Assembly: GCA_964562985.1 (NCBI GenBank)
Contig: CAZLWE010000004.1
Location: 17,338-81,337 of the forward strand
Source of the DNA: an uncultured Acidimicrobiales bacterium
GTDB taxonomy: Bacteria > Actinomycetota > Acidimicrobiia > Acidimicrobiales > SHLQ01
Direction of reading: 5' to 3'
Length of the DNA stretch: 64,000 nucleotides
Positions 15,068 to 63,478 of the stretch are shown in pieces. Position numbers and translations under genes: made by a program. A model generated the notes under the pieces. The model saw nothing but the letters and a program-made list of their open reading frames with translations, had not been told where the DNA came from and did no database searches. Numbering within the stretch: the first letter of the stretch is position 1; every line of letters starts with the position of its first letter.

Positions 15068-16201
15068 ATGACTGACACACACCTTCGGTATGGCGTCATC
15101 GGTACTGGGATGATGGGCGTCGAACACATTCTCAATATCAAGGCTCTCGACAACACCGCGGTGACGGCCATTTGCGACACCGATGAGATCTCTCGCAAAG
15201 CTGGCCTCGAAGCTGCAGGCCCAGATGCGACCGTGTACGAGGACTATCGCGATCTACTCGCCGACGAGACCGTCGACGCGGTCGTAGTTGTCACCCCCAA
15301 CTTCACCCACATCGACGTCATGCGCAACGTGATCTCCTCCGGCAAACATGTGCTCTGTGAAAAGCCGCTGTGCATCACCGCGGCCGAATGCCAAACGCTG
15401 ATCGACGAGTCAGATGGCTACGACGGCGTCATCTGGGTCGGCCTCGAATATCGCTACATGCCCGCCGTCGAGGCACTGATCAAGGAGGTTCGAAACGGCT
15501 TCGTCGGCGATCCGAAGATGGTGGCGATTCGCGAGCATCGATTCCCGTTCCTGGTCAAGGTCGGCGACTGGAATCGTTTCAGCGCGAATACCGGTGGAAC
15601 GCTGGTCGAGAAGACCTGCCACTACTTCGACCTTATGAACCTCATCCTCGACGAGCGCCCATCCCAAGTGTTCGCATCGGGAGCCCAAGACGTGAACCAC
15701 CTGGACGAGACCTACGACGGAAAGCAAAGCGACATCTTGGACAACGCCTTCGTGATCATCGACTACCCGAGCGGCAAACGTGCGCTGCTCGATCTCTGCA
15801 TGTTCGCCGAGGCAACTCGTGATCAAGAAGAGCTTTCAGTTGTGGGCGACAAGGGGAAGGTCGACGCACGGATCCCCACGTCGGAGCTGCACCTTGGGAC
15901 CCGCTCAGGCGAGGGCATCCCCGATATCGGCCAGGTAGAAACCCGAAAAATAACCAACGACGCGATCCAACATGTCGGTCTCCACCACGGAGCGAGCTAT
16001 CTCGAGCACGTCGACTTTGCAGCTGCCATCCAAGCTCACCGCGCAGCTGGTGGCGGCGAAGCCGGTGCGGCGGCGGTTGCTGAGCTCGGCACCCTGGTAA
16101 GCCTCGAAGACGGAATGTGGTCCGTCGCGATGGGCGAAGCCGCCCACCGTTCCATCGAAGAAAACCGCCCAGTCTCCCTGCGCGAAATCATCGGGGTCTG
16201 A
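15068..16201 (+). CDS. Gfo/Idh/MocA family oxidoreductase
   Basis: N-terminal Rossmann motif YGVIGTGMMGVEHI and the EKP motif (LCEKPL). 377 aa. The stop codon lies inside the first REP-like palindrome. Confidence 0.85.
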   Translation: MTDTHLRYGVIGTGMMGVEHILNIKALDNTAVTAICDTDEISRKAGLEAAGPDATVYEDYRDLLADETVDAVVVVTPNFTHIDVMRNVISSGKHVLCEKPLCITAAECQTLIDESDGYDGVIWVGLEYRYMPAVEALIKEVRNGFVGDPKMVAIREHRFPFLVKVGDWNRFSANTGGTLVEKTCHYFDLMNLILDERPSQVFASGAQDVNHLDETYDGKQSDILDNAFVIIDYPSGKRALLDLCMFAEATRDQEELSVVGDKGKVDARIPTSELHLGTRSGEGIPDIGQVETRKITNDAIQHVGLHHGASYLEHVDFAAAIQAHRAAGGGEAGAAAVAELGTLVSLEDGMWSVAMGEAAHRSIEENRPVSLREIIGV

Positions 16202-16250
16202 CCCCTTCCGTCCCCATATGAGACGCGCGGGGTCAGACCCACTTCGTCCC
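16193..16250. repeat. REP-like doublet (left flank)
   Basis: GGGTCTGACCCC (16194-16205) and GGGGTCAGACCC (16229-16240) are exact reverse complements separated by 23 nt. Each is followed by a (T/C)TTC(C)GTCCC tail. Confidence 0.75.
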
Positions 16251-16345
16251 TCTTGTCACACCACCCGGCTACGTTGGCCTTTCGCTCGTTGCGATACCTC
16301 GGAAGCATCACGTTTCCCTCCATTCAATTTCTGGAATCGTGAACA

Positions 16346-17275
16346 ATGCCAAGACGCCCGAGAATCGACTACCCCGGCGCCTACCACCACGTAATGAACA
16401 GAGGCGCCGACCGTCAGGCCACATTTCGCTCCGAACGCGATCACAAGGACTTCACCTGTTTGTGGGCCGAAGCCGTGATTCGCTTTGGGATCGTTGTCCA
16501 CGCCTATGCCTGGATGGGGAACCATTACCACGCCCTAGTGATGTCACCCGACGCACAGCTCAGTGAAACCCTTCGGTGGATTGGCCATGTCTACACCCAG
16601 CGTTTCAACAAGCGCCACGGCCGAGATGGCGCTTTGTTTCGAGGGCGATTCCACTCGGTTTTGATCGACAGCGACGCATATCTACATCGAGTAGCTCGCT
16701 ACATCGAGCGGAACCCTCTCGAAGCGGGTCTTGCCACCCCAGAAAGCCTCGTTCGGTATAAGTGGTCAAGCCTTCAGCATTATCTAAACCCAACCTCGTC
16801 CGACTGGGTGGAGACCAAACCCTTACTCTCTCGACTTGGGTCCCGGCACGAGTACCTCCGACATGTGTTGTCGGATCATTCAGACGACGTGTTGGAGGGC
16901 TTTTATAATCGAGAAGAACAACCGCTTTTGGTGCTCGGCGACCAAGAGTTCGTTGACTCATTGCCCTGCGAAGTTGCCGGACTGAACCCAACCGTGGGTC
17001 TTACACACGTCTCGTTAGCAGAGATTGACTTTGCGCTCAGTCAGGTACGAGCGCTGCGGATCATCGGCACCAGAAGCCGTGGTCTAGCGGTCGAACTCGG
17101 ACAAAGACTTGCTGGCGCTACAAGACGCGAACTGGCCGACCACTACAACTTCAAGACGGTAAGTTCAGTCTCATCAGCAATCTCACGCAGCAAAGCGGAC
17201 CCCAACACCGCCGAAACGAGGCGGGCGATAATGAGCTACTTGGGGCGATCCAGCCAAGGACCGCTTGCGAGCTAG
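16346..17275 (+). CDS. Y1 (HUH) transposase, IS200-like/REP-associated type, with C-terminal DnaA-C-like HTH
   Basis: HUH motif in GNHYHALVM and a catalytic Tyr region RYIERNPLEAG. The C-terminal segment (RRELADHYNFKTVSSVSSAISR) resembles the DnaA domain IV HTH. Confidence 0.8.
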   Translation: MPRRPRIDYPGAYHHVMNRGADRQATFRSERDHKDFTCLWAEAVIRFGIVVHAYAWMGNHYHALVMSPDAQLSETLRWIGHVYTQRFNKRHGRDGALFRGRFHSVLIDSDAYLHRVARYIERNPLEAGLATPESLVRYKWSSLQHYLNPTSSDWVETKPLLSRLGSRHEYLRHVLSDHSDDVLEGFYNREEQPLLVLGDQEFVDSLPCEVAGLNPTVGLTHVSLAEIDFALSQVRALRIIGTRSRGLAVELGQRLAGATRRELADHYNFKTVSSVSSAISRSKADPNTAETRRAIMSYLGRSSQGPLAS

Positions 17276-17283
17276 AGCCGCAG

Positions 17284-17332
17284 GGGGTCTGACCCCAAAC
17301 GGCTCACTTCGGGACGGAGAGGGTCTGACCCC
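17284..17332. repeat. REP-like repeats (right flank)
   Basis: GGGGTCTGACCCC at 17284-17296 and GGGACGGAGAGGGTCTGACCCC at 17311-17332. Confidence 0.75.
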
Positions 17333-17344
17333 ATTGATCTGGGT

Positions 17345-17379
17345 CTGGTTGGCGAGGCTTTGAAGACCTCGCCAACCAG
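17345..17379. terminator. 13-bp perfect hairpin between convergent genes (bidirectional terminator candidate)
   Basis: CTGGTTGGCGAGG-ctttgaaga-CCTCGCCAACCAG lies between the transposase stop (17275) and the permease stop (17423). There is no U-tract on either strand. Confidence 0.5.
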
Positions 17380-20526: not shown

Positions 20527-20562
20527 CCCCGGTACTAGGAAGTGAAAAAGAAGACCGGAGGG

Positions 20563-20627
20563 GGCGGGGGCTGACCCGAAGGTCAAACCCCCGCCATATC
20601 CGGAGAGTCAGCCTGACACTGTCAGGC
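20563..20627. promoter_or_regulatory. two intercistronic stem-loops between SBP and permease genes
   Basis: GGCGGGGG..(TGACC-cgaa-GGTCA)..CCCCCGCC at 20563-20595 and GCCTGAC-act-GTCAGGC at 20611-20627. Their position is typical of mRNA-stabilising or attenuating hairpins after SBP genes. Confidence 0.5.
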
Positions 20628-20638
20628 CGAAGCCAGAG

Positions 20639-22126
20639 TTATGGCCAGAAGGTGTCGATTTCGGCGGTGCCTTCCTCGACGGTGGTGTCACCATTCACGA
20701 TCTGGGTACCAACTTCCCAGAATGCGTTGTTCACGTCGCCACCAATGAGGTCCGAAGCGTCGAATCGGAAGATGTCAGCATCCTGAAGGATCGACACGAA
20801 GTTCGACTCGAGCGGGTTCCACAGTGATGGATCGGCGCCGGTGTTTGCGGTTACGAAGCCCGAAAGTACGAGTTCTTCGCTGTCACCCTGCAGGAGTGCC
20901 TGCTGAGCGGTTTGACGTGCGTTGGCGTACTCAGCGCTTGCGAAGTACTCCATGACAGCCCATACCTCTGGACGATCGTTGAATGCGCCAACGAAGGTTC
21001 CGCCACCGAGGACTGGACGATCGGTGCCGTTGCCTGGGAAGAAGAACACGTCGACTGCACCTTCACTGCCATCAGCAACCGGGGTGCCTTCTGGGAAGAA
21101 GGAGGCGAAGAACGATGCCTGGCGGTGCATGAAGCAGTCGCCGTTGACGAGAGGCTCAGCGTTGTCACGGAACGAGGTGGTAGCGATGCTGCCACCTGCG
21201 GCGAAGACGGCACCTGGCTTGTTCCACTCATCGATGATGATCTGGAAAGCATTGGTGAGCTCTGGGCTCGAGAACAGAAGTTCTCCAGCTACCCAAGCGT
21301 CGTAGTTCTCCGGAGTGGTTGTACGGAGCATGATGTCCTCAACCCAGTCGGTGAATGGCCAACCGGTTGCGCCACCGGACTCGATACCGACACACCATGG
21401 GGTGTTGCCGTCAGCGATCATCTGGTCGCTAAGTGCGAACAGGTCGTCGAGGGTGGTTGGAATGTCGTAGCCGGCGGCTTCGAAGCGTGCTGGCTGGTAC
21501 CAAACGAGCGACTTGAGGTCGTTCTTGTTCGGAAGACCGAACTGGGTGCCGTCGAAGTTCGCGAAGTTGATCGCGTCTGGGGTCCAGTTCGCCTGTGCAG
21601 CCTCGATGATCGACGCAGGTACTTCTTGGACGTGTCCAGCGTCTGCGGCATCACGAAGGTTGCCTGGCTGAGGGAACACGGAGATGTCCGGGTTGGTGCC
21701 AGCTTCGAGCTGAATATTGATTTCGGTCTCCCAGTCGGCTGAGCCCTGGTAGATGATCGAAATGCCGTTGGCGTTACCGAACTCCTGCAGTGCTTGGTTC
21801 AGTGCACCAGCTTCGGCTTCGGATCGCTCTGGACCAGAAACGGTCACAACGGGAACAGCGTCGTCGTCGCCTTCACCGGCTTCGGCGGCAGCAGCCTCAG
21901 CCGCTTCAGCGCGGGCTTCTGCGTCCGCAGCAGCTGCTTCGGCCTCTGCCTGAGCAGCTTGTGCTTCAGCTACCGCATCACTTGCTGCGTCGTCGCCGCC
22001 CTCGGCTGCATCGGCCACGGCGTCTGCCGCACCTTCAACAGTGTCCGTTGCCCCACCACATGCCGCGGCGATCAGTGACAACGCGAACAGCGACGCAAAC
22101 AGCTTCATCCATTTGCTTGTCTTCAC
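20639..22126 (-). CDS. sugar ABC transporter substrate-binding lipoprotein (family 1)
   Basis: Lipobox LIAAACGG, an Ala/Glu-rich linker, then a family-1 extracellular solute-binding body. GTG at 22126 has GGGGGAG upstream; ATG at 22141 and 22108 are alternatives. Confidence 0.85.
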   Translation of the reverse strand: MKTSKWMKLFASLFALSLIAAACGGATDTVEGAADAVADAAEGGDDAASDAVAEAQAAQAEAEAAAADAEARAEAAEAAAAEAGEGDDDAVPVVTVSGPERSEAEAGALNQALQEFGNANGISIIYQGSADWETEINIQLEAGTNPDISVFPQPGNLRDAADAGHVQEVPASIIEAAQANWTPDAINFANFDGTQFGLPNKNDLKSLVWYQPARFEAAGYDIPTTLDDLFALSDQMIADGNTPWCVGIESGGATGWPFTDWVEDIMLRTTTPENYDAWVAGELLFSSPELTNAFQIIIDEWNKPGAVFAAGGSIATTSFRDNAEPLVNGDCFMHRQASFFASFFPEGTPVADGSEGAVDVFFFPGNGTDRPVLGGGTFVGAFNDRPEVWAVMEYFASAEYANARQTAQQALLQGDSEELVLSGFVTANTGADPSLWNPLESNFVSILQDADIFRFDASDLIGGDVNNAFWEVGTQIVNGDTTVEEGTAEIDTFWP

Positions 22127-22173
22127 GGGTCTCCCCCTCATATCATTTGCCCGAATCCTTATGAATACAGGCC

Positions 22174-31360: not shown

Positions 31361-33835
31361 TCAGCACCACGGTTTGAGCTGAACCTTGGCGTCGACCATG
31401 CGTCCGGGGAGTTCGATCTGCCATTCGCCGGACTCGATCCAGGCTTTGTCGGCTCGTTCGCCCGCATCGACTTCGTCTTGGGGTCGGTACGCCCATGCCA
31501 TTCCGACCGCGGCGCCGACGGTGTGTCCCCACATGCCATCGGTGACGTAGCCGACCCGCACACCATCTCGGTAGACGGGCTCGTGATGATGTAGCAGTAC
31601 CGACTCGTCGTGGACGGCCACCTGAATCAGGCGGCGAGCGTTGCCAAACGCCTTGGCCTTGGCCAGCGCTTCCTTGCCACGGAAGTCCTTGTCCCAGTCG
31701 ATGGCGAAGTTGAGACCCGACTGCACCGGGTTGTCGTCGGGGGTGACCTCGTGGCCCCAGTGGCGGTAGCCCTTCTCGAAGCGAAGGGAGTTGAGCGTGT
31801 GGTACCCAGCAAGCTCCATTCCGTGGGGCTTGCCAGCTTCCATGAGCTGGTCGAAGACGTGCACCGCGAACTCGGTGGGGACATAGAGCTCCCAACCAAG
31901 CTCTCCCACGTAGCTCATGCGGTTGGCCCGCACGTAGCAACTGCCGATGTCGATTGGTTGATGGGTAGCGAACGGGAACGCCTCTTCACTCATATCGGCT
32001 TGGGTAAGGCTCGCCACGATGTCTCGGGATGCCGGTCCCATCACCGCGAGGACTGCATAGGCAGAGGTGATGTCGGTGACGGTCGCGTTCGCTTCGCCGC
32101 CGCTTCCTGAGACAGCACCGTGGTTCAGAATCGCTTGTTCGATCGCAAAGAGGTCACGGGCACGCGTTCCTGCACCACCGATCACCCAGAATTCGCGCTC
32201 GGAGATTCGACTCACGGTGAGGTCGGCCTCGATCCCGCCTTTGTCGTTGAGCCACTGGGTGTATACCGAGCCGCCTACGTCCCCGGTGACCGGGCCTGAT
32301 GACATGTAGCTCATCACGTCCGCTGCATCGCGTCCCTTTACAACGAACTTCGCGAAGGAGGTCAGGTCGAAGAGTCCAGCCTTTTCTCGGACTGCGGTGT
32401 GCTCGATGCGGTTGGAATCGTGCCAGTTCTGACGTCCCCAGCTGTACTCGTATTTCGCTTCGATACCGAGGTCGGGCTTCGCGTAGAAGTTGGCGCGTTC
32501 CCACCCCATAACCGAGCCCCACGCAGCACCGTGCGCCTCCAGCCGGTCGTGCAGAGGCGAGCGACGAATGTCTCGAGCCGTCTCGTACTGGCGGTGTGGC
32601 CAGTGCGGCGCGTAGAGCAACCCGAGTCCCTCGACGGTGCGGTCTCGCAGGAACTTCTCCGTGCCGTGGAATTGCTCGAATCGACGAATGTCGACATCGG
32701 ACAGGTCGATATGTTGTTCGCCCTCGGTCATCCAATAGGCAAGTGCCATACCCGCGCCACCGGCGGATTGGATGCCGATCGAATTGAAGCCCGCGGCCAC
32801 CCACATACCCGGCAGGTTCGGCGCCTCCCCGAGGATGTAGCTGTCGTCGGGAGTGAAGCTCTCGGGTCCGTCGAAGATCAACCGCAGGCCAGCCTCGTGC
32901 AGCTCGGGCACACGATCGAAGGTTGGCGGCAGATACTCCGCCAAATGATCAGCGTCTGGATCGAGCGTGATGAAGGACTTATCGGTCGGCGGTGGGCCGA
33001 CGGCTGGCCATGGGTCGGCGACGGGCTCGAACAACCCAACGAGCAGCGAACCACCCGCTTCAGGCTTGAGGTACGCATAGCGGTCAGGGTCGCGAAGGAC
33101 CGGCCATTCGGCATTGAGGCCCTCGATCGGTTCGGTAACCACGTAGTAGTGATGCGCAGCATGCAGCGGCACCTGTACACCATGTTTGAGAGCGAGGTGA
33201 CGGGTCCAGAGCCCGCAGGCCAGCACGACCTGCTCGGCTTCAATGCGCTGACCGTCGTCGGTGATCACACCGATGCAGCGGCCGTTCTCGACGATGAGAT
33301 CATCTACCCCGGTGCCCTCGTAGAGCTTGGCACCGCCCATGCGAGCACCCTTCATGAGGGCTTGGGTCACGTCGGAGGGACCAACCGATCCATCTTCAGG
33401 TAGCCAGATACCACCGACGATGTCGTCGATGTGACACATCGGGAACTTGTCGACGATCTCGGCGGGTGTGATCTCATCGGCGATCACGCCGAGGTAGCGA
33501 GCCATCGCCGCGGTACGACGAAGCTCTTCCCAGCGATGTTCGGTGCTGGCGAGCGAGATCGCCCCGGGTGCGAGGAAGCCGGTGGCCTGGCCGGTCTCCT
33601 CTTCCAGCGTCTTGTAGAGCTCAAGGCTGTATTGGGCGAGACGGGTCAGGTTCTCCGTCGCCCGGAGCTGCGCGACGAGACCCGCGGCATGCCAGGTAGT
33701 TCCGCCGGTCAGCTCGTGACGTTCAAGCACCGCAACATCGCTACGCCCCAGCTTGGTCAAGTGATAGGCGACCGACGCTCCGACGATTCCTCCACCAACA
33801 ACGACGATCTCCGCGCGATCAGGAACATCAGCCAT
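31361..33835 (-). CDS. dimethylglycine/sarcosine dehydrogenase-family protein (FAD oxidoreductase + GcvT folate-binding domain)
   Basis: N-terminal VVVGGGIVGASVAYHL DAO domain and a C-terminal aminomethyltransferase-like domain. 824 aa. Confidence 0.85.
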   Translation of the reverse strand: MADVPDRAEIVVVGGGIVGASVAYHLTKLGRSDVAVLERHELTGGTTWHAAGLVAQLRATENLTRLAQYSLELYKTLEEETGQATGFLAPGAISLASTEHRWEELRRTAAMARYLGVIADEITPAEIVDKFPMCHIDDIVGGIWLPEDGSVGPSDVTQALMKGARMGGAKLYEGTGVDDLIVENGRCIGVITDDGQRIEAEQVVLACGLWTRHLALKHGVQVPLHAAHHYYVVTEPIEGLNAEWPVLRDPDRYAYLKPEAGGSLLVGLFEPVADPWPAVGPPPTDKSFITLDPDADHLAEYLPPTFDRVPELHEAGLRLIFDGPESFTPDDSYILGEAPNLPGMWVAAGFNSIGIQSAGGAGMALAYWMTEGEQHIDLSDVDIRRFEQFHGTEKFLRDRTVEGLGLLYAPHWPHRQYETARDIRRSPLHDRLEAHGAAWGSVMGWERANFYAKPDLGIEAKYEYSWGRQNWHDSNRIEHTAVREKAGLFDLTSFAKFVVKGRDAADVMSYMSSGPVTGDVGGSVYTQWLNDKGGIEADLTVSRISEREFWVIGGAGTRARDLFAIEQAILNHGAVSGSGGEANATVTDITSAYAVLAVMGPASRDIVASLTQADMSEEAFPFATHQPIDIGSCYVRANRMSYVGELGWELYVPTEFAVHVFDQLMEAGKPHGMELAGYHTLNSLRFEKGYRHWGHEVTPDDNPVQSGLNFAIDWDKDFRGKEALAKAKAFGNARRLIQVAVHDESVLLHHHEPVYRDGVRVGYVTDGMWGHTVGAAVGMAWAYRPQDEVDAGERADKAWIESGEWQIELPGRMVDAKVQLKPWC

Positions 33836-33850
33836 CTACGCGCACCAACC

Positions 33851-33960
33851 AATCTGTGGTCCGATTCCGTTACTATCGCCCGGTTTTCGACCACAGGTCC
33901 CAAAGCCAGCCAATCTGTGGTCGGTGGCCGTTACTATCGCCCGGTTTTCGACCACAGATT
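33851..33960. repeat. tandem pair of ~50-bp hairpin elements (AATCTGTGGTC...CTATCG...GACCACAGATT)
   Basis: Copy A is at 33851-33896 and copy B at 33912-33960. They share the loop core CCGTTACTATCGCCCGGTTTTC. Stems are 8-11 bp. A third copy lies at 62872-62919. Confidence 0.8.
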
Positions 33961-33968
33961 CCTTAGCG

Positions 33969-36413
33969 CTAGCCACGGAGTTGCTCGTTTTGTGGGTCGA
34001 AGGCTGGTTCGGAAAGGACCCTGGCAGGTTTCATTTCGCCGAGGATCATGACGCCGAGTTCGTTGCCGGGTTCGGCGTGGTCGGCGGTGACGTAGGCGAA
34101 GGCCAGACTCTTGTCGACGGTGAAGCCGTAGCCGCCAGACGTGGTGAGGCCGATCGCGTCGGCGTCGTCTGCGGGGCTCGCAAATACCCCTTCGCCACCA
34201 AGGCAGTCGGCAGCACCAGCCACGTCAAGGCCACCAACGTCGACGTCGAGGTAGACGAGCTTCCAGGGGTTACCTGATGGCGGTCGGTCGAGTGCGTCCT
34301 TGCCGACAAAGTCGCCCTTGTCTCGTTTCACGAAGAACTCGACACCTGCCTGTATTGGACCGATGTCGTGAGTGAGTTCGTTGCGAGTGAGGTACGCCTT
34401 TTCGATACGAAGTGAGTTGAGCGCGTGGCCGCCGAAGTCGGCGATGCGGTGCCCCTCCCCCGCTGCCCAGAGTGCGTCGTAGACGGCTTCCATCTGGTCG
34501 ACGTCCATGTGAAGTTCCCAGCCACGAGCGCCGGTGAAGCCAACGCGAAGTCCGTACACATCAACACCGGCAATGCTCATGGGGCGAGCTGACAAGAACG
34601 GGAACGCTTCGTTGGACACGTCGGCTTCGGTGCAGGCTGCCAGCACCTCGCGAGCCTTTGGTCCGACAAGTACAAGCACGCCACGCTTGGTCGAGTAGTC
34701 CTCGATCGTGACGTCTTCACCATCGGCTACCGAGTGGCGTAGCCAGTCGAGGTCGCGCTGTTCGCCCATGGCACCGGAGATCGCATAGAACGAGTCATCG
34801 CCGGCCTTGGTCAAGGTCATTTCGGTCTCGATACGGCCCTGCTCGTTGAGCAGGTAGTTCAGCGAAATGCGACCTTCCTTAGGGATACGTCCGGTGGTGA
34901 TCCGGTTCAAGAAGGTCTCGGCGTCGGGGCCGGTCACCTCGTACTTGGAGAACGCGGTGAGGTCCATCAGGCCGACGCGTTCGCGCACGGCCTTGCACTC
35001 CTCGGCTACCGCGGGATACCAGTCTGGGCGGCGCCAACCGTGGGCGTCTTCGAGGGGCTGGTCTTCGGGGACGAACCACTTGGGTTGTTCCCAGCCGTAG
35101 AACTCGGTGAACATCGCCCTCTTGCCCTTGAGCTTCTCGTACAGGCTCGATACACGCACGGGACGGTTGGCGAGGCGCTCTTCGCCCGGCGGGTGCACCC
35201 GAAACATCCACTCGTAGTCTTCGACCGCCTTCGGGTCGACGTAGTCGTGGTCGGCCCAGCCGAATCGGCGGGGGTCGTAGTGACGCAAGCTGAGTTCGGT
35301 TTCGCCATGCACCATCCAGCGAGCGAGCTCTCGGCCAGATCCTGGACCCCACGCGAGTCCGATCGACGACCCGGTGTTGAGCCAGTAGTTCTTCAAACCG
35401 GGTGCCGGGCCGAGGAGCATGTGGCCGTCGGTCGTGTGGGTGATCGCGCCGTGCACCCAACGTTTGATGCCGACCTCGCCCATCGCCGGAGCTCGGTCGA
35501 AGGCCTCGGCCAGCCACGGGGCGATCTTGTCGATGTCTTCGGGGAAGAGCGGGTTCTCTGCTTCCCAGGGAACGCCGTCCTTCCAGCATTGCTCGGCGCC
35601 TTCGTGTTCGTAGATGCCTATGAGACCAGCGGTCTGTTCCTGGCGGATGTAACCGGCTGCGCGGTTGTCGCGCATGACCGGCATTTCCCAGTCGAGGTTC
35701 GCTGCCATTTCGGGTAGTTCTTCGGTGACAAGGTAGTGGTGCAACACGTTGGCTTGCGGCACGGTGAACCCACTCATGGCCGCGACCTGATCGCCGTAAC
35801 AACCGGCGGCGTCTACGACGTGTTCACAGGTGATCGTGCCTTTCTCGGTCACGACCTGCCATTCGCCATTGGGTTGCTGGGTGACTTCGAGAACCCGGTT
35901 GCGGCGGCTGATCTCAGCCCCCAACGAGCGTGCGTGGTTAGCGAACGCCATGGTTACCCCGGACGGGTCGACATGGCCTTCGCCTTCGGTCCAAATGCCA
36001 GCGATGACGTCGTCGAAGTTGTACAGCGGGTTGAGCTTTTGCAGCTCGTCAGGTGGGAGCAGCTCGATCGGGTACCCAATGTATTTGCCGACACCCAGGT
36101 GCGTCTTGAGCTGGTCGAGTTCATCATCGTTGTAGGCAACCCGAATGCCCCCGGGCGTGTGCAGCGATACCTCTTGGCCGGTCTCGGCAGGCAGTTCGTG
36201 GTAAAGCTCGAGTGCGTAGTGATGGAACGCAGCCGTCGTGTAGTCACCGACCGAGCGTGTGATCTGCCCCGCTGCGTGCCACGTCGAACCCGATGTCAGT
36301 TCGGCCTTCTCGACGAGGATGCACTCGGTCCATCCTTCCTTCGCCAAGTGATACAGCAGCGATGCTCCATGTACCCCTCCGCCGATGATGACTACTCGTG
36401 CTGTTTCGCGCAC
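33969..36413 (-). CDS. dimethylglycine/sarcosine dehydrogenase-family protein, paralog 2
   Basis: Same two-domain architecture as the neighbour (VIIGGGVHGASLLYHL...GcvT-like C-terminus). 814 aa. Confidence 0.85.
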   Translation of the reverse strand: MRETARVVIIGGGVHGASLLYHLAKEGWTECILVEKAELTSGSTWHAAGQITRSVGDYTTAAFHHYALELYHELPAETGQEVSLHTPGGIRVAYNDDELDQLKTHLGVGKYIGYPIELLPPDELQKLNPLYNFDDVIAGIWTEGEGHVDPSGVTMAFANHARSLGAEISRRNRVLEVTQQPNGEWQVVTEKGTITCEHVVDAAGCYGDQVAAMSGFTVPQANVLHHYLVTEELPEMAANLDWEMPVMRDNRAAGYIRQEQTAGLIGIYEHEGAEQCWKDGVPWEAENPLFPEDIDKIAPWLAEAFDRAPAMGEVGIKRWVHGAITHTTDGHMLLGPAPGLKNYWLNTGSSIGLAWGPGSGRELARWMVHGETELSLRHYDPRRFGWADHDYVDPKAVEDYEWMFRVHPPGEERLANRPVRVSSLYEKLKGKRAMFTEFYGWEQPKWFVPEDQPLEDAHGWRRPDWYPAVAEECKAVRERVGLMDLTAFSKYEVTGPDAETFLNRITTGRIPKEGRISLNYLLNEQGRIETEMTLTKAGDDSFYAISGAMGEQRDLDWLRHSVADGEDVTIEDYSTKRGVLVLVGPKAREVLAACTEADVSNEAFPFLSARPMSIAGVDVYGLRVGFTGARGWELHMDVDQMEAVYDALWAAGEGHRIADFGGHALNSLRIEKAYLTRNELTHDIGPIQAGVEFFVKRDKGDFVGKDALDRPPSGNPWKLVYLDVDVGGLDVAGAADCLGGEGVFASPADDADAIGLTTSGGYGFTVDKSLAFAYVTADHAEPGNELGVMILGEMKPARVLSEPAFDPQNEQLRG

Positions 36414-62431: not shown

Positions 62432-62869
62432 ATGACCACGACCGACATCGACGACGAAGTTGCCGCGATGCTCGCGAAGGCCGAACAGCGATACACCACC
62501 GGCCGCAGGCGTCTAGTTACCGCGCTGCGAGAGGGCGGCCGCCCGCTCACGATTGGCCAGATCGGCGAGCTCGCCAAGGACCTCCCCCAGTCGAGCGTGT
62601 ACCGAAACCTCACGATCCTCGAAGAGGTCGGCGCGGTCACCCGCATCGTCACCTCCGACGAGTTCGCCCGATACGAGTTAGCCGAGCATCTGACCGGCCA
62701 TCACCACCACCTCATCTGCACGAGCTGTGGTGATGTAGCCGACTTCGAGCTCGACCACGCAACCGAGCACACGCTTGACGCCGCGCTTCACAAGGCCGCG
62801 AAGGCAGCTGGCTTTCAAGTCGGCGAACACCGCCTCGACCTGCTCGGCACCTGCACAAACTGCACCTAG
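62432..62869 (+). CDS. zur: Fur-family metalloregulator (Zur-like)
   Basis: 145 aa with HHHHLICTSCG...C..C metal-site motifs. Located downstream of znuC. Confidence 0.75.
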   Translation: MTTTDIDDEVAAMLAKAEQRYTTGRRRLVTALREGGRPLTIGQIGELAKDLPQSSVYRNLTILEEVGAVTRIVTSDEFARYELAEHLTGHHHHLICTSCGDVADFELDHATEHTLDAALHKAAKAAGFQVGEHRLDLLGTCTNCT

Positions 62870-62871
62870 AA

Positions 62872-62919
62872 AATCTGTGGTCCGAAATTGGTCGATAGCT
62901 CGGAAACCGACCACAGATT
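62872..62919. repeat. third copy of the AATCTGTGGTC...GACCACAGATT hairpin element
   Basis: 11-bp perfect stem. The loop (cgaaattggtcgatagctcggaaacc) resembles the reverse complement of the loops at 33851-33960, sharing the CGATAG core. It starts 3 nt after the zur stop. Confidence 0.75.
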
Positions 62920-63086
62920 CCTTCCTGGCCACGCGAATTCGGAACAGGTCATGGATAGCACGTAAGAACCTTCATAATCCGGCCCGATCTGGCCCATATC
63001 GACCAAACGCGCACCGATAGCTCACCTATGGTTGGACCATCGCCGACCATTGGCTGGAACTAGAAAGGTGACGATCGGTGACCGAT

Positions 63087-63305
63087 TCACAGAGCGACAA
63101 GAACGGAACGAGCTGCGATCTCAACCTTGACCGGGACCGCTTCATCACGCGTCGAATCCCGAAGAAGGCGCTCCACGTCCTCGACCTGACCTTCCTGTTC
63201 GACTTCGCCCGCATCGAGGCCTTCGCGAATCAACGGCGTTTCGGCTTCCCTAGCTAGCGCCGACGCGAGCCGGTGAGCGTCACGTGCCGAGAGACACGCG
63301 CGCAT
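63087..63305 (-). CDS. hypothetical small protein (possible ribbon-helix-helix fold)
   Basis: ATG at 63305 gives MRACLSARDAHRLASALAREAETPLIREGL.., which loosely fits a strand-helix-helix pattern. No partner toxin ORF is evident. Coding status uncertain. Confidence 0.25.
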   Translation of the reverse strand: MRACLSARDAHRLASALAREAETPLIREGLDAGEVEQEGQVEDVERLLRDSTRDEAVPVKVEIAARSVLVAL

Positions 63306-63478
63306 TGCAAGACCATAACCAACAGGTAAGAATCGTCTCGACTGGCGACCGTTTGTACTGTACTGCTGCCAGTATTTTTCGGAGCCGCATTCGGGTCTGT
63401 GTTGTTGTCCGGGTCCGCGCCAAATCAACCACTAACAGGTAGGTACATCATGACCCTGATTCCATGGGGAGGCGCCCA

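What the first reader, a model, noticed from the sequence alone, without database searches (positions are those of the whole stretch)
33851..33960. Tandem duplicated ~50-bp hairpin element between two paralogous dehydrogenase genes
Two adjacent copies of AATCTGTGGTC-(27 nt loop containing CCGTTACTATCGCCCGGTTTTC)-GACCACAG(ATT) fill almost the whole 133-bp gap between the two DMGDH/SarDH-family paralogs. They sit where the terminator of the upstream gene and the promoter of the downstream gene should be. There is no U-tract, so they are not canonical intrinsic terminators. The conserved loop sequence argues for a sequence-specific element (a protein-binding site, a small MITE/REP family, or a processed RNA) rather than a generic stem.
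Basis: seen in the sequence. Interest (0 to 1): 0.55.

Follow-up and report, generated by a model that had tools for sequence, protein, structure and literature searches.

The report
Dispersed palindromic repeat, nuclease-linked
The two hairpins are copies of a short palindromic DNA repeat scattered through the genomes of a group of uncultured Acidimicrobiales; they were inserted between two formerly abutting genes, and the repeat family consistently brackets one nuclease gene that may spread it, which would be a new partner type for such repeats.

Summary
Two 61-nt tandem units (33845-33905, 33906-33966) fill the 133-nt gap between two minus-strand DMGDH-family genes that are only ~32% identical.

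They are not a local scar, operator or canonical terminator. They belong to a dispersed REP/REPIN-like family, (A)AATCTGTGGTC, then 25-28 nt of variable, partly paired interior, then GACCACAGATT(T). A third copy lies at 62872-62919. About 55 copies occur in 38 loci from about 10 uncultured Acidimicrobiales MAGs.

- Copies sit 2-15 nt from stop codons and are enriched between convergent genes.
- They have no target-site duplication and no strand bias.
- Tandem copy number varies at orthologous sites.
- Interiors evolve in concert within each genome while the arms stay invariant.

Relatives with 78-86% identical dhB have dhA and dhB 2-3 nt apart, so the pair is an insertion into a once-coupled junction.

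The window also holds a RAYT-like gene, but a different palindrome (GGGGTCWGACCC) flanks it.

Family-1 hairpins flank, on both sides, every sampled homolog of a 301-aa protein with an AbiEi-like DNA-binding module and a Vsr/DUF559-type nuclease domain. More distant homologs, as far as Tsukamurella, carry their own private hairpins. I infer, without proof, that this nuclease is the family's partner.

The parts
33906..33966 (-). Family-1 palindromic element, copy A (next to the dhA stop codon). Arms AATCTGTGGTCG and CGACCACAGATT; interior GAAAACCGGGCGATAGTAACGGCCACC on the sense strand.
   Evidence: Covariance model R1 scores 66.5 bits, E 8.6e-19. Orthologous copies exist in L015 and L006.
33845..33905 (-). 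Family-1 element, copy B (next to the dhB start codon). Its outermost arm positions are degenerate (ACCTGTGGTC).
   Evidence: R1 scores 57.0 bits.
62866..62925 (+). Third family-1 copy, beginning 3 nt after the TAG stop of a Fur/Zur-family gene (62432-62869) in a znuA / ABC-transporter cluster.
   Evidence: R1 scores 55.6 bits.
33969..36413 (-). dhA, the upstream DMGDH/SarDH-family gene (814 aa). Context only.
   Evidence: Pfam DAO, FAO_M, GCV_T, GCV_T_C.
31361..33835 (-). dhB, the downstream DMGDH/SarDH-family gene (824 aa), about 31-33% identical to dhA. Context only.
   Evidence: Orthologs with 92-78% identity were used to compare the junction.

Best explanation
SHOWN. The two hairpins are tandem copies of a dispersed, extragenic, REP/REPIN-like palindromic DNA element ('family 1') specific to a clade of uncultured Acidimicrobiales. 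The unit has two nearly invariant inverted arms, (R)RAATCTGTGGTC and GACCACAGATT(YY). Between them lies a 25-28-nt interior that varies between genomes but keeps a short inner stem. The pair was inserted into a dhA-dhB junction that was ancestrally 2-3 nt wide. It has been kept since in at least three species. Its arms stayed invariant while its interior tracked the subtype of each genome's other copies.

INFERRED. The family is kept and spread at the DNA level by a sequence-specific protein that recognises the arms. The best candidate is a single-copy 301-aa protein ('X') with an AbiEi-like wHTH DNA-binding module and a Vsr/DUF559-type nuclease domain. Hairpins of this family flank its gene on both sides in every genome sampled. 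This is the same layout as REP arrays around a RAYT gene. Cleavage or nicking at the arms, followed by repair templated on another copy, would account for four observations:
- the invariant arms
- the homogenised interiors
- the tandem arrays of variable size
- the lack of target-site duplications

INFERRED, secondary. When transcribed, each copy forms a stable hairpin (-17 to -43 kcal/mol) in either orientation. Here this uncouples dhB translation from dhA. It probably also acts as a 3'-end-protecting or weakly attenuating structure rather than an efficient terminator, because these copies lack the AUUUU tail of the family consensus.
For: Family and distribution:
- A pattern scan of 185,579 species genomes found 38 loci, all in Acidimicrobiales MAGs.
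- About 55 copies were counted with relaxed matching.
- Lone half-sites occur only at chance level: 11 seen against 13.4 expected.

Structure:
- The outer stem is invariant, including in 14 tandem partners that the search pattern did not select for.
- The inner pair at columns 23-40 covaries: GC 26, CG 13, UA 5.
- One genome carries the compensatory outer-stem variant GGTT/AACC.

Insertion:
- dhB orthologs found by protein search have dhA and dhB 2 nt apart (L057 at 86% identity, L060 at 78%), 3 nt apart (L059), or separated by an unrelated 96-nt spacer (L058).
- The window, L015 and L006 carry the tandem pair.

Dynamics:
- One site is filled in L024 and empty in L027.
- Orthologous sites hold 1 versus 2 and 1 versus 3 copies.
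- The array upstream of X holds 2-4 copies in samples with the identical X protein.
- Interior identity is 0.71 within genomes and 0.44 between genomes. Orthologous copies score 0.22-0.56, below their own-genome paralogs at 0.58-0.82.
- There is no target-site duplication. Hairpin stability shows no bias towards the transcribed strand: 8 versus 9.

Link to X:
- Five X protein clusters (P0241, P0242, P0251, P0252, P0264), retrieved by protein identity only, all have hairpins on both sides. The upstream core ends 74-87 nt before the start codon (68 nt at P0264/L079). The downstream core begins 3-13 nt after the stop codon; at L079 it overlaps the last 27 nt of the ORF.
- At 61% identity (L079) the flanking hairpin has a diverged stem but the same architecture.
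- At 22-28% identity, Tsukamurella paralogs carry private flanking hairpins that are not dispersed elsewhere in 150 kb.
- X keeps an invariant D...ExD...H set of residues.
- The AF2 model (pLDDT 90.8) matches the AbiEi antitoxin 6y8q over its N-terminal part. Its C-terminal part matches the I-Bth0305I homing-endonuclease catalytic domain 3r3p, TM 0.78.
- AbiEi proteins bind inverted repeats (PMC7319586).
Against: - The link to X is purely positional. No activity, binding or co-occurrence across whole genomes was tested.
- Four of the five Acidimicrobiales X loci share related synteny (bioB-X-4HBT, or Peripla_BP-X-Aldedh). They are therefore partly one inherited locus, not independent events.
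- The flanking copies are in direct orientation. That is also what insertion of X into a pre-existing hairpin or array would give.
- X is absent from the 64-kb window and from 37 of the 38 family loci, so its presence in the window's own genome is not shown.
- Gene contexts rest on my own crude ORF caller.
- The 38 loci were selected by an exact 22-nt match, which inflates the apparent invariance of the arms.
- No transcript data exist, so every RNA-level effect is inferred.
Confidence: 0.6

Rival explanations
1. The family is above all a selected RNA element: a sequence-conserved, bidirectional terminator or mRNA 3'-end stabiliser, like TRIT of mycobacteria. Its spread and conservation would reflect that function rather than a DNA-level mobilising enzyme.
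For: - Enriched between convergent genes: 19 of 39 clusters against 10 of 52 intergenic gaps in the window, Fisher p = 0.0035.
- Copies lie 2-15 nt from stop codons.
- The consensus has an A-run, then the stem, then AUUUU(C/G) on both strands. The T-run is slightly longer where transcripts exit: 3.3 in convergent, 3.0 in co-directional and 2.4 in divergent contexts.
- Canonical terminators are not above chance in this genome.
- TRIT is a precedent: 147 palindromic copies at stop codons (PMC3152330).
Against: - Six clusters lie between divergent genes, and many lie inside tight operons 12-26 nt from the next start codon.
- Only 2 of about 53 gene ends in the window carry it, and most convergent pairs overlap or lie less than 15 nt apart with no hairpin.
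- Hairpin stability shows no bias towards the transcribed strand.
- The window copies lack the U-run.
- Termination does not need 11-17 invariant bases, nor genome-wide homogenised interiors.
- Term-seq in M. tuberculosis found minimal overlap (2-4%) between each class of predicted terminator, TRIT included, and mapped 3' ends (bioRxiv 10.1101/2022.06.01.494293).
Confidence: 0.2
2. X is a selfish, homing-type endonuclease gene that inserts into pre-existing hairpins and duplicates its target. Family 1 spreads by some other means, such as an unseen second RAYT, another transposase, or recombination alone.
For: - The flanking hairpins are direct repeats, 85-100% identical in the interior, as target duplication predicts.
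- The X nuclease domain is closest to a homing-endonuclease catalytic domain.
- Tsukamurella has three X paralogs in 150 kb, each with a different private hairpin, as expected if each inserted into a different local hairpin.
- The genome does have a working-looking REP-RAYT locus.
Against: - In the Acidimicrobiales, X was found at one conserved locus per genome sampled, not inserted into many of the tens of available hairpins.
- One Tsukamurella pair is inverted rather than direct: 93% as an inverted repeat against 78% as a direct one.
- The only RAYT seen, and its four orthologs, are flanked solely by family 2.
- Arrays next to X change size between samples that carry the identical protein. 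The arrays next to the RAYT-like gene likewise differ in size between its orthologs (2-5 units).
Confidence: 0.17
3. The hairpins are an operator or regulatory site specific to the dimethylglycine/sarcosine catabolic genes, or a scar of the duplication that produced the two paralogs.
For: Location between two paralogs. The two copies have identical interiors.
Against: - The same element follows a zur-like gene in the window. Elsewhere it flanks prfC (RF3) and lies near secE and other housekeeping genes.
- The paralogs are only about 31-33% identical.
- Relatives keep both paralogs with no element between them.
Confidence: 0.02
4. DNA-uptake-sequence-like signal: inverted pairs of an 11-mer, as with Neisseria DUS pairs.
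For: An invariant 11-mer occurs as inverted pairs downstream of genes.
Against: The half-site never occurs alone above chance, with 11 lone 8-mers against 13.4 expected. Only 5 exact 11-mers occur in the window, all within hairpins.
Confidence: 0.01

Closest known systems
REP / REPIN elements with their RAYT (REP-associated tyrosine transposase), e.g. Pseudomonas fluorescens SBW25 and E. coli (PMC3116915, PMC3337134, PMC5581495)
   Same: - Short extragenic palindromes in tens of copies.
- Two highly conserved inverted ends separated by a less conserved spacer whose length and hairpin-forming capacity are kept, with compensatory changes.
- Tandem clusters and no target-site duplication.
- Vertical persistence at orthologous sites.
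- A single-copy nuclease gene bracketed by arrays of the repeat.

My data are.
   Different: - The arms are not themselves short palindromes.
- I saw no GTAG-type 5' tetranucleotide.
- The unit is about 49 nt; REPIN ends in SBW25 are 71-110 bp apart.
- The RAYT-like gene of this same genome is flanked by another family, GGGGTCWGACCC.
- The bracketed gene is a wHTH plus PD-(D/E)xK (Vsr/DUF559) protein, not a Y1 HUH transposase.
TRIT (Tuberculosis Rho-independent terminator) motif of Mycobacterium (RNIE paper, PMC3152330)
   Same: An actinobacterial hairpin conserved in both sequence and structure. It is largely palindromic and so bidirectional, clade-restricted, and narrowly positioned at stop codons. 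Its authors also suggested that an unknown factor recognises the sequence.
   Different: A different sequence and a different clade. TRIT copies overlap coding ends (around -8), whereas family-1 copies start 2-15 nt after the stop codon. I could not obtain the TRIT sequence or M. tuberculosis DNA to test homology, or whether DUF559-type genes sit among TRITs.
MITEs derived from DDE-transposase insertion sequences
   Same: Terminal inverted repeats, small size, intergenic location, multiple copies.
   Different: No target-site duplication. No autonomous IS with these termini in about 400 kb sampled. The unit is only about 49 nt. Each 'end' flanking gene X is a complete hairpin, not half of one.
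MIRU-type intercistronic tandem repeats of mycobacteria (own knowledge, not checked here)
   Same: Units of 50-60 nt in variable-number tandem arrays between genes of operons in an actinobacterium.
   Different: MIRUs are direct repeats without marked dyad symmetry and are proposed to carry small coupling ORFs. Family 1 is a hairpin, and most copies are single.
AbiEi antitoxins (6y8q; PMC7319586) and the Vsr-like homing endonuclease I-Bth0305I (3r3p), as relatives of protein X
   Same: X residues ~1-195 superpose on AbiEi, a protein that binds inverted repeats. The C-terminal ~100 residues superpose on the I-Bth0305I catalytic domain and on the DUF559 protein NGO0050.
   Different: No AbiEii toxin gene lies next to X. 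X is not inside an intron. The fusion of the two modules, and its bracketing by hairpins, is not described in the papers I could search.

Membership tests
REP/REPIN-RAYT system | Short palindromic sequence, extragenic, repeated many times in the genome | tested here: met
   There are 3 copies in 64 kb. About 55 copies occur in 38 loci from about 10 MAGs, up to about 14 exact-match loci per MAG. All true copies are intergenic.
REP/REPIN-RAYT system | REPIN layout: two conserved inverted ends, a variable spacer that keeps hairpin potential, and compensatory changes | tested here: met
   Arms invariant. Interior identity 0.44 between genomes. The inner pair covaries (GC/CG/UA). One outer-stem compensatory variant, GGTT/AACC.
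REP/REPIN-RAYT system | Each conserved end (REP) is itself a short imperfect palindrome recognised as a hairpin, with a conserved 5' tetranucleotide | tested here: not met
   The arm (R)RAATCTGTGGTC has no self-complementarity, and no GTAG-like motif is conserved at the flanks.
REP/REPIN-RAYT system | The repeats flank the cognate RAYT gene | tested here: not met
   The RAYT-like gene at window 16346-17275 scores 35 bits on Pfam Y1_Tnp (cut-off 23) and 46 bits on NCBIfam REP_Tyr_transpos (cut-off 80). It and four orthologs (L061-L064) are flanked only by GGGGTCWGACCC arrays with a 36-nt period, with no family-1 copy. A second RAYT elsewhere in the genome cannot be excluded.
MITE (DDE transposon derivative) | Terminal inverted repeats plus a target-site duplication | tested here: not met
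   TIR-like arms are present. No direct repeat of 2-4 nt appears at any offset in 32 single copies.
Canonical intrinsic (Rho-independent) terminator | G+C-rich hairpin followed immediately by a 7-9-nt U-rich tract | tested here: not met
   The window copies end in AUUGG or AUUCC. The family consensus has only AUUUU(C/G). The terminator scan did not flag them.
Integron attC site | R''/R' core sites (RYYYAAC ... GTTRRRY) following a cassette ORF within a cassette array | tested here: not met
   There is no GTTRRRY core in the arms. Copies follow conserved housekeeping genes, and tandem copies have no ORF between them. The stem / internal-loop / stem architecture does resemble attC.
Any Rfam family | Score at or above the family's gathering threshold | tested here: not met
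   No hits over the whole window at gathering thresholds. At E<=10 only two chance-level microRNA-precursor matches (mir-46 at 15 bits, mir-274 at 13.4 bits), far below their gathering scores.
TRIT (Mycobacterium) | Match to the TRIT covariance model or sequence | not testable with these tools
   Neither the TRIT model nor mycobacterial genomes were available. I have only the published description.
Vsr/DUF559 (MTES_1575-type) PD-(D/E)xK nucleases (for protein X) | Restriction-endonuclease-like fold with a conserved acidic/His catalytic set | tested here: met
   - Pfam MTES_1575, E 8e-9 (35.9 bits, just under the 38.2 cut-off).
- DUF559, E 8e-4.
- Invariant D232, E243, D245, H250, D259 across 44 homologs.
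- AF2 model (pLDDT 90.8) against 3r3p, TM 0.78, and 3hrl, TM 0.74.

The most novel reading that the evidence does not exclude
Actinomycetota harbour an undescribed class of element: a gene for an AbiEi-like wHTH plus Vsr/DUF559 nuclease, bracketed by its own 40-50-nt hairpins. This layout is seen from Acidimicrobiia to Tsukamurella. In one Acidimicrobiales clade the hairpin has escaped and multiplied as a REP-like family. The nuclease keeps that family homogeneous through cleavage and templated repair. This would be a second, non-RAYT route to REP-type genome repeats. It might also explain other sequence-conserved actinobacterial hairpins such as TRIT.
Probability: 0.4. Interest if true: 0.78.

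Novelty: new variant of a known kind. Interest (0 to 1): 0.6.

Why it matters
REP-type repeats and their domesticated RAYT transposases are the one well-studied case of a long-lived, vertically inherited repeat-plus-enzyme partnership in bacterial genomes. They are known mainly from Proteobacteria and Cyanobacteria.

Here one Acidimicrobiales genome carries a RAYT-like gene with its own repeat. It also carries a second, similarly built repeat family that is tied by position to a quite different enzyme, a DNA-binding Vsr-like nuclease. If that enzyme is the partner, three things follow:
- REP-like repeats have arisen more than once with different catalytic machinery.
- The very common and uncharacterised actinobacterial 'DUF559 / AbiEi-domain' proteins gain a testable function.
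- The unexplained sequence conservation of actinobacterial stop-codon hairpins such as TRIT gains a candidate explanation.

At this locus, the insertion shows how such a repeat can split a translationally coupled gene pair and then persist across species.

Tried and rejected
- **Known RNA families.** Rfam at gathering thresholds over the window found nothing. At E<=10 on the gap it gave only two chance-level microRNA-precursor matches, far below their gathering scores. The tRNA scan found nothing.
- **Plasmid search.** Megablast of the locus against plasmids gave no match.
- **DUS-like reading.** Rejected, because lone half-sites occur at chance level.
- **Target-site duplications.** None at any offset.
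- **Strand test.** I expected the sense strand to fold better if the element worked as RNA. There was no bias, 8 versus 9. The interior orientation relative to the upstream gene is also mixed.
- **K-turn and attC readings of the internal loop.** Considered from the sequence and dropped. The GA/GA geometry does not fit, and there are no attC core sites.
- **First RAYT search.** tblastn and phmmer with E. coli RayT over about 400 kb found nothing. This was a FALSE NEGATIVE. Pfam later showed a RAYT-like gene in the window. That gene turned out to pair with another repeat family, so the RAYT explanation for family 1 was rejected on that evidence.
- **Metagenome pattern scan.** Of 17 hits, most were unrelated long palindromes that happen to contain the 10-mer. 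Only L042 looks like family 1. Four contigs of about 70% G+C carry GATCTGTGGTC...GACCACAGATC hairpins of similar build, but their homology is unproven.
- **Covariance-model search for diverged copies in the window.** No additional copies.
- **Literature.** Searches for Acidimicrobiia repeats, and for DUF559 or MTES_1575 together with palindromes, found no prior description.

Full report
**1. The observation**

The region holds two head-to-tail 61-nt units, 33845-33905 and 33906-33966, which are 85% identical. Each unit is a hairpin:
- Copy 2 has perfect 12-nt arms, AATCTGTGGTCG and CGACCACAGATT, 25 nt apart.
- Copy 1 has 8-bp arms, CTGTGGTC and GACCACAG.

Neither the hairpin pattern nor the shared 30-mer occurs in any of 100 dinucleotide-preserving shuffles of the window.

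Both flanking ORFs are on the minus strand: 33969-36413 ('dhA', 814 aa) is upstream and 31361-33835 ('dhB', 824 aa) is downstream. Both carry DAO + FAO_M + GCV_T + GCV_T_C domains. They are distant paralogs, about 31-33% identical. The hairpins therefore cannot be a by-product of a recent gene duplication.

**2. A dispersed family**

The window holds a third copy at 62872-62919, starting 3 nt after the stop codon of a Fur/Zur-family gene. I scanned one genome from each of 185,579 species for AATCTGTGGTC-N20-32-GACCACAGATT. The scan returned 38 loci, all from uncultured Acidimicrobiales MAGs, with up to about 14 loci per MAG. Relaxed matching gives about 55 copies.

The half-site does not occur alone above chance: 11 lone 8-mers against 13.4 expected. 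The conserved unit is therefore the hairpin, not a DUS-like word. A covariance model built from 54 copies finds only the three known copies in the window. Rfam has nothing comparable.

**3. Anatomy**

The consensus is (C)YAG-RAAATCTGTGGTC-[25-28 nt]-GACCACAGATTTY-CTRG.
- The 9-11-bp outer stem is invariant. This holds even in the 14 tandem-partner copies that the search pattern did not select for.
- The interior differs between genomes but keeps a 3-6-bp inner stem. One of its pairs covaries: GC 26, CG 13, UA 5.
- Some genomes have fully paired interiors (L028, L031).
- One genome carries a compensatory change at the top of the outer stem, GGTC/GACC to GGTT/AACC.

The arms are the conserved part, and the 'loop' is the variable part.

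**4. Genomic context**

I called genes with my own codon-usage ORF caller, which is crude. Of 39 classifiable clusters, 19 lie between convergent genes, 14 between co-directional genes and 6 between divergent genes. The window's own intergenic regions split 10 / 32 / 10. Convergent sites are enriched (Fisher p = 0.0035). Divergent sites are not depleted (p = 0.78).

Other features:
- Copies usually begin 2-15 nt after a stop codon.
- There is no target-site duplication.
- Hairpin stability does not favour the transcribed strand: 8 versus 9.
- The orientation of the interior relative to the upstream gene is mixed.
- The consensus tail AUUUU(C/G) is slightly longer where transcripts exit. The window's copies have only AUU.
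- Hairpin-plus-U-tract terminators are not above chance in this genome.
- Most convergent pairs in the window overlap or lie less than 15 nt apart with no hairpin.

The family is therefore not the organism's general terminator.

**5. History of this locus**

L015 (MAG CAYUKM, dhB 92.6% identical) and L006 (MAG CALHTB, 88.6%) hold the same two genes with the same tandem pair between them. Arms and the GGCGATAG apex are conserved. Linkers and the rest of the interior have diverged.

I then retrieved further dhB orthologs by protein search, which is independent of the DNA pattern. Their junctions are as follows:

| Locus | dhB identity | dhA-dhB junction |
|---|---|---|
| L057 | 86% | TAG-AG-GTG (2 nt) |
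| L060 | 78% | TGA-GT-GTG (2 nt) |
| L059 | 82% | 3 nt |
| L058 | 86% | unrelated 96-nt spacer |

The ancestral state was therefore a tightly coupled pair. The 133-nt gap was created by insertion of the repeat in the ancestor of the window, CAYUKM and CALHTB genomes.

**6. Dynamics**
- One site is filled in L024 and empty in L027.
- Two orthologous sites hold different numbers of copies: 2 versus 1, and 3 versus 1.
- Interiors are 0.71 identical between different loci of one genome but 0.44 identical between genomes.
- Across the CAYUKM versus CAYTUB/CALHTB comparisons, orthologous copies (0.22-0.56) resemble each other less than they resemble their own genome's paralogs (0.58-0.82).

This pattern is concerted evolution, or repeated replacement. 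It points to an active DNA-level process that reads the arms.

**7. The RAYT test**

My first search with E. coli RayT found nothing. That was a false negative. While checking another palindrome, GGGGTCWGACCC ('family 2'), I found that it brackets window 16346-17275. This is a 309-aa protein with a Y1_Tnp domain:
- Pfam scores it at 35 bits, above the cut-off of 23.
- NCBIfam REP_Tyr_transpos gives a full-length match at 46 bits, below its cut-off of 80.
- HUH and Tyr motifs are visible.

Orthologs at 67-48% identity sit in the same synteny. They are flanked by arrays of 2-5 family-2 units with a 36-nt period and carry no family-1 copy. The genome thus has a RAYT-like gene flanked by its own REP-type repeats, but family 1 is not that gene's repeat.

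**8. A different bracketed gene**

In L020 one gene is flanked by a family-1 tandem pair on each side. It encodes a 301-aa protein ('X') with AbiEi_4 wHTH and MTES_1575/DUF559 domains. I found homologs by protein search and fetched their contigs by exact protein identity.

Every homolog is flanked on both sides:
- P0242 (73% identical), P0251 (69%) and P0252 (68%) carry family-1 hairpins of three different interior subtypes.
- The upstream core ends 74-87 nt before the start codon. The downstream core begins 3-13 nt after the stop codon.
- There are 1-4 upstream copies. The number differs between samples that carry the identical protein.

P0264 (61% identical) sits in a different synteny on a 4.45-Mb contig. 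It is flanked by two 96%-identical copies of a different 51-nt hairpin, CGAAATTGAGAGGAT...ATCCTCTCAATTTCG, with the same architecture. The downstream copy there overlaps the last 27 nt of the ORF.

In Tsukamurella tyrosinosolvens NCTC13231, three paralogs (22-28% identical) lie within 150 kb. Two are bracketed by their own private hairpins, and the third has one upstream. None of these hairpins is dispersed elsewhere in the 150 kb.

X itself looks like an active nuclease:
- It keeps an invariant D...ExD...H set of residues.
- Its AF2 model (pLDDT 90.8) superposes on the AbiEi antitoxin over residues ~1-195.
- The last ~100 residues superpose on the I-Bth0305I homing-endonuclease catalytic domain.
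- AbiEi proteins bind inverted repeats (PMC7319586).

**9. Interpretation**

*Shown:*
- The finding is two copies of a clade-specific, dispersed REP/REPIN-like palindrome.
- The pair was inserted into an operon junction and retained.
- The family evolves in concert within genomes.
- Its hairpins always bracket gene X in the genomes sampled.

*Inferred:*
- X recognises the arms and, through cleavage and templated repair, spreads and homogenises the family. This role is analogous to that of RAYT for REPINs (PMC3116915).
- At the RNA level, the hairpins uncouple dhB from dhA and may protect or attenuate the transcript.

**10. Main rivals**
- The family is chiefly a TRIT-like terminator or stabiliser.
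- X is a homing-type gene that merely inserts into hairpins. The direct orientation of its flanks fits this reading.

**11. Caveats**
- The 38 loci were selected by exact arm sequence.
- Most X loci share ancestry, so they are not independent events.
- Gene calls are approximate.
- X was not seen in the window.
- No expression or biochemical data exist.

I found no description of this gene-hairpin association in the searchable literature.

Noticed in passing
window 16193-17332: There is a RAYT-like gene at 16346-17275 (+), 309 aa. It scores 35 bits on Pfam Y1_Tnp and 46 bits on NCBIfam REP_Tyr_transpos, and many homologs carry a C-terminal DnaA_C-like HTH. A second palindrome family brackets it: GGGGTCTGACCCC at 16193-16205 with GGGGTCAGACCC at 16229-16240 upstream, and copies at 17283-17296 and 17321-17332 downstream. 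Orthologs (L061-L064) share the synteny and carry arrays of 2-5 units with a 36-nt period. This looks like a REP-RAYT locus in Acidimicrobiia.
   Followed up: yes
window 17345-17379: A perfect 13-bp hairpin, CTGGTTGGCGAGG-N9-CCTCGCCAACCAG, lies just after the family-2 repeats, between the RAYT-like gene and the convergent gene. A similar GGTTGGCGAGG...CCTCGCCAACC hairpin lies downstream of the RAYT ortholog in L062 (3035-3075).
   Followed up: no
window ~20560-20650: The most stable 3'-end structure in the window (-42.4 kcal/mol) lies downstream of the gene 20639-22141(-). It consists of GGCCTGACAGTGTCAGGC plus GGGTTTGACC...GGGTCAGCC, and may be a degenerate relative of family 2.
   Followed up: no
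window 62920-63463: About 545 nt with no convincing ORF lie between the third family-1 copy and the next gene, a phosphonate-binding protein. This is unusually long for this compact genome. Rfam found nothing there at gathering thresholds.
   Followed up: no
L017 2590-2730: A half copy of family 1 (GAAAATCTGTGGTCCGCTGCC, at 2603) is followed by a family-2 unit (GGGGTCAGACCC, at 2632) and then a full family-1 copy (2673). This looks like one repeat inserted into another.
   Followed up: partly
L060 5481-5620: In a relative that lacks the dhA-dhB insertion, a long palindrome with roughly 29-bp arms (ATGGGGTCAGGTCTGACATAGCAAGAGGT...) follows the dhB stop codon directly. It contains GTCTGAC/GTCAGAC cores like those of family 2.
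   Followed up: no
L058 1691-1786: Another relative (dhB 86% identical) has an unrelated 96-nt spacer at the dhA-dhB junction, with no family-1 or family-2 motif. Its origin is unknown.
   Followed up: no
L081-L083 (NZ_LR134454.1, 1-150000): The record named 'plasmid 12' of Tsukamurella tyrosinosolvens NCTC13231 carries pks13, fadD32, serS, gltB and similar genes, so it is evidently a chromosome fragment. It holds three X-type genes (RS09230, RS09310, RS09515). Two of their hairpins share a GTTCTG(C/T)GA stem motif reminiscent of the family-1 variant GTTCTGTGGTC.
   Followed up: partly
L041, L044, L048, L054 (metagenome contigs, about 70% G+C): These contigs carry hairpins GATCTGTGGTC-[internal loop, inner stem, loop]-GACCACAGATC, built like family 1. 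L041 and L048 come from the same sample and share flanks. They may represent a wider superfamily in high-G+C Actinomycetota, or may be coincidental.
   Followed up: partly
L003 ~1700 and L073 1270-1360: Runs of N (masked stretches or scaffold gaps) lie directly next to family-1 copies or inside arrays. Assemblies probably undercount array sizes.
   Followed up: no
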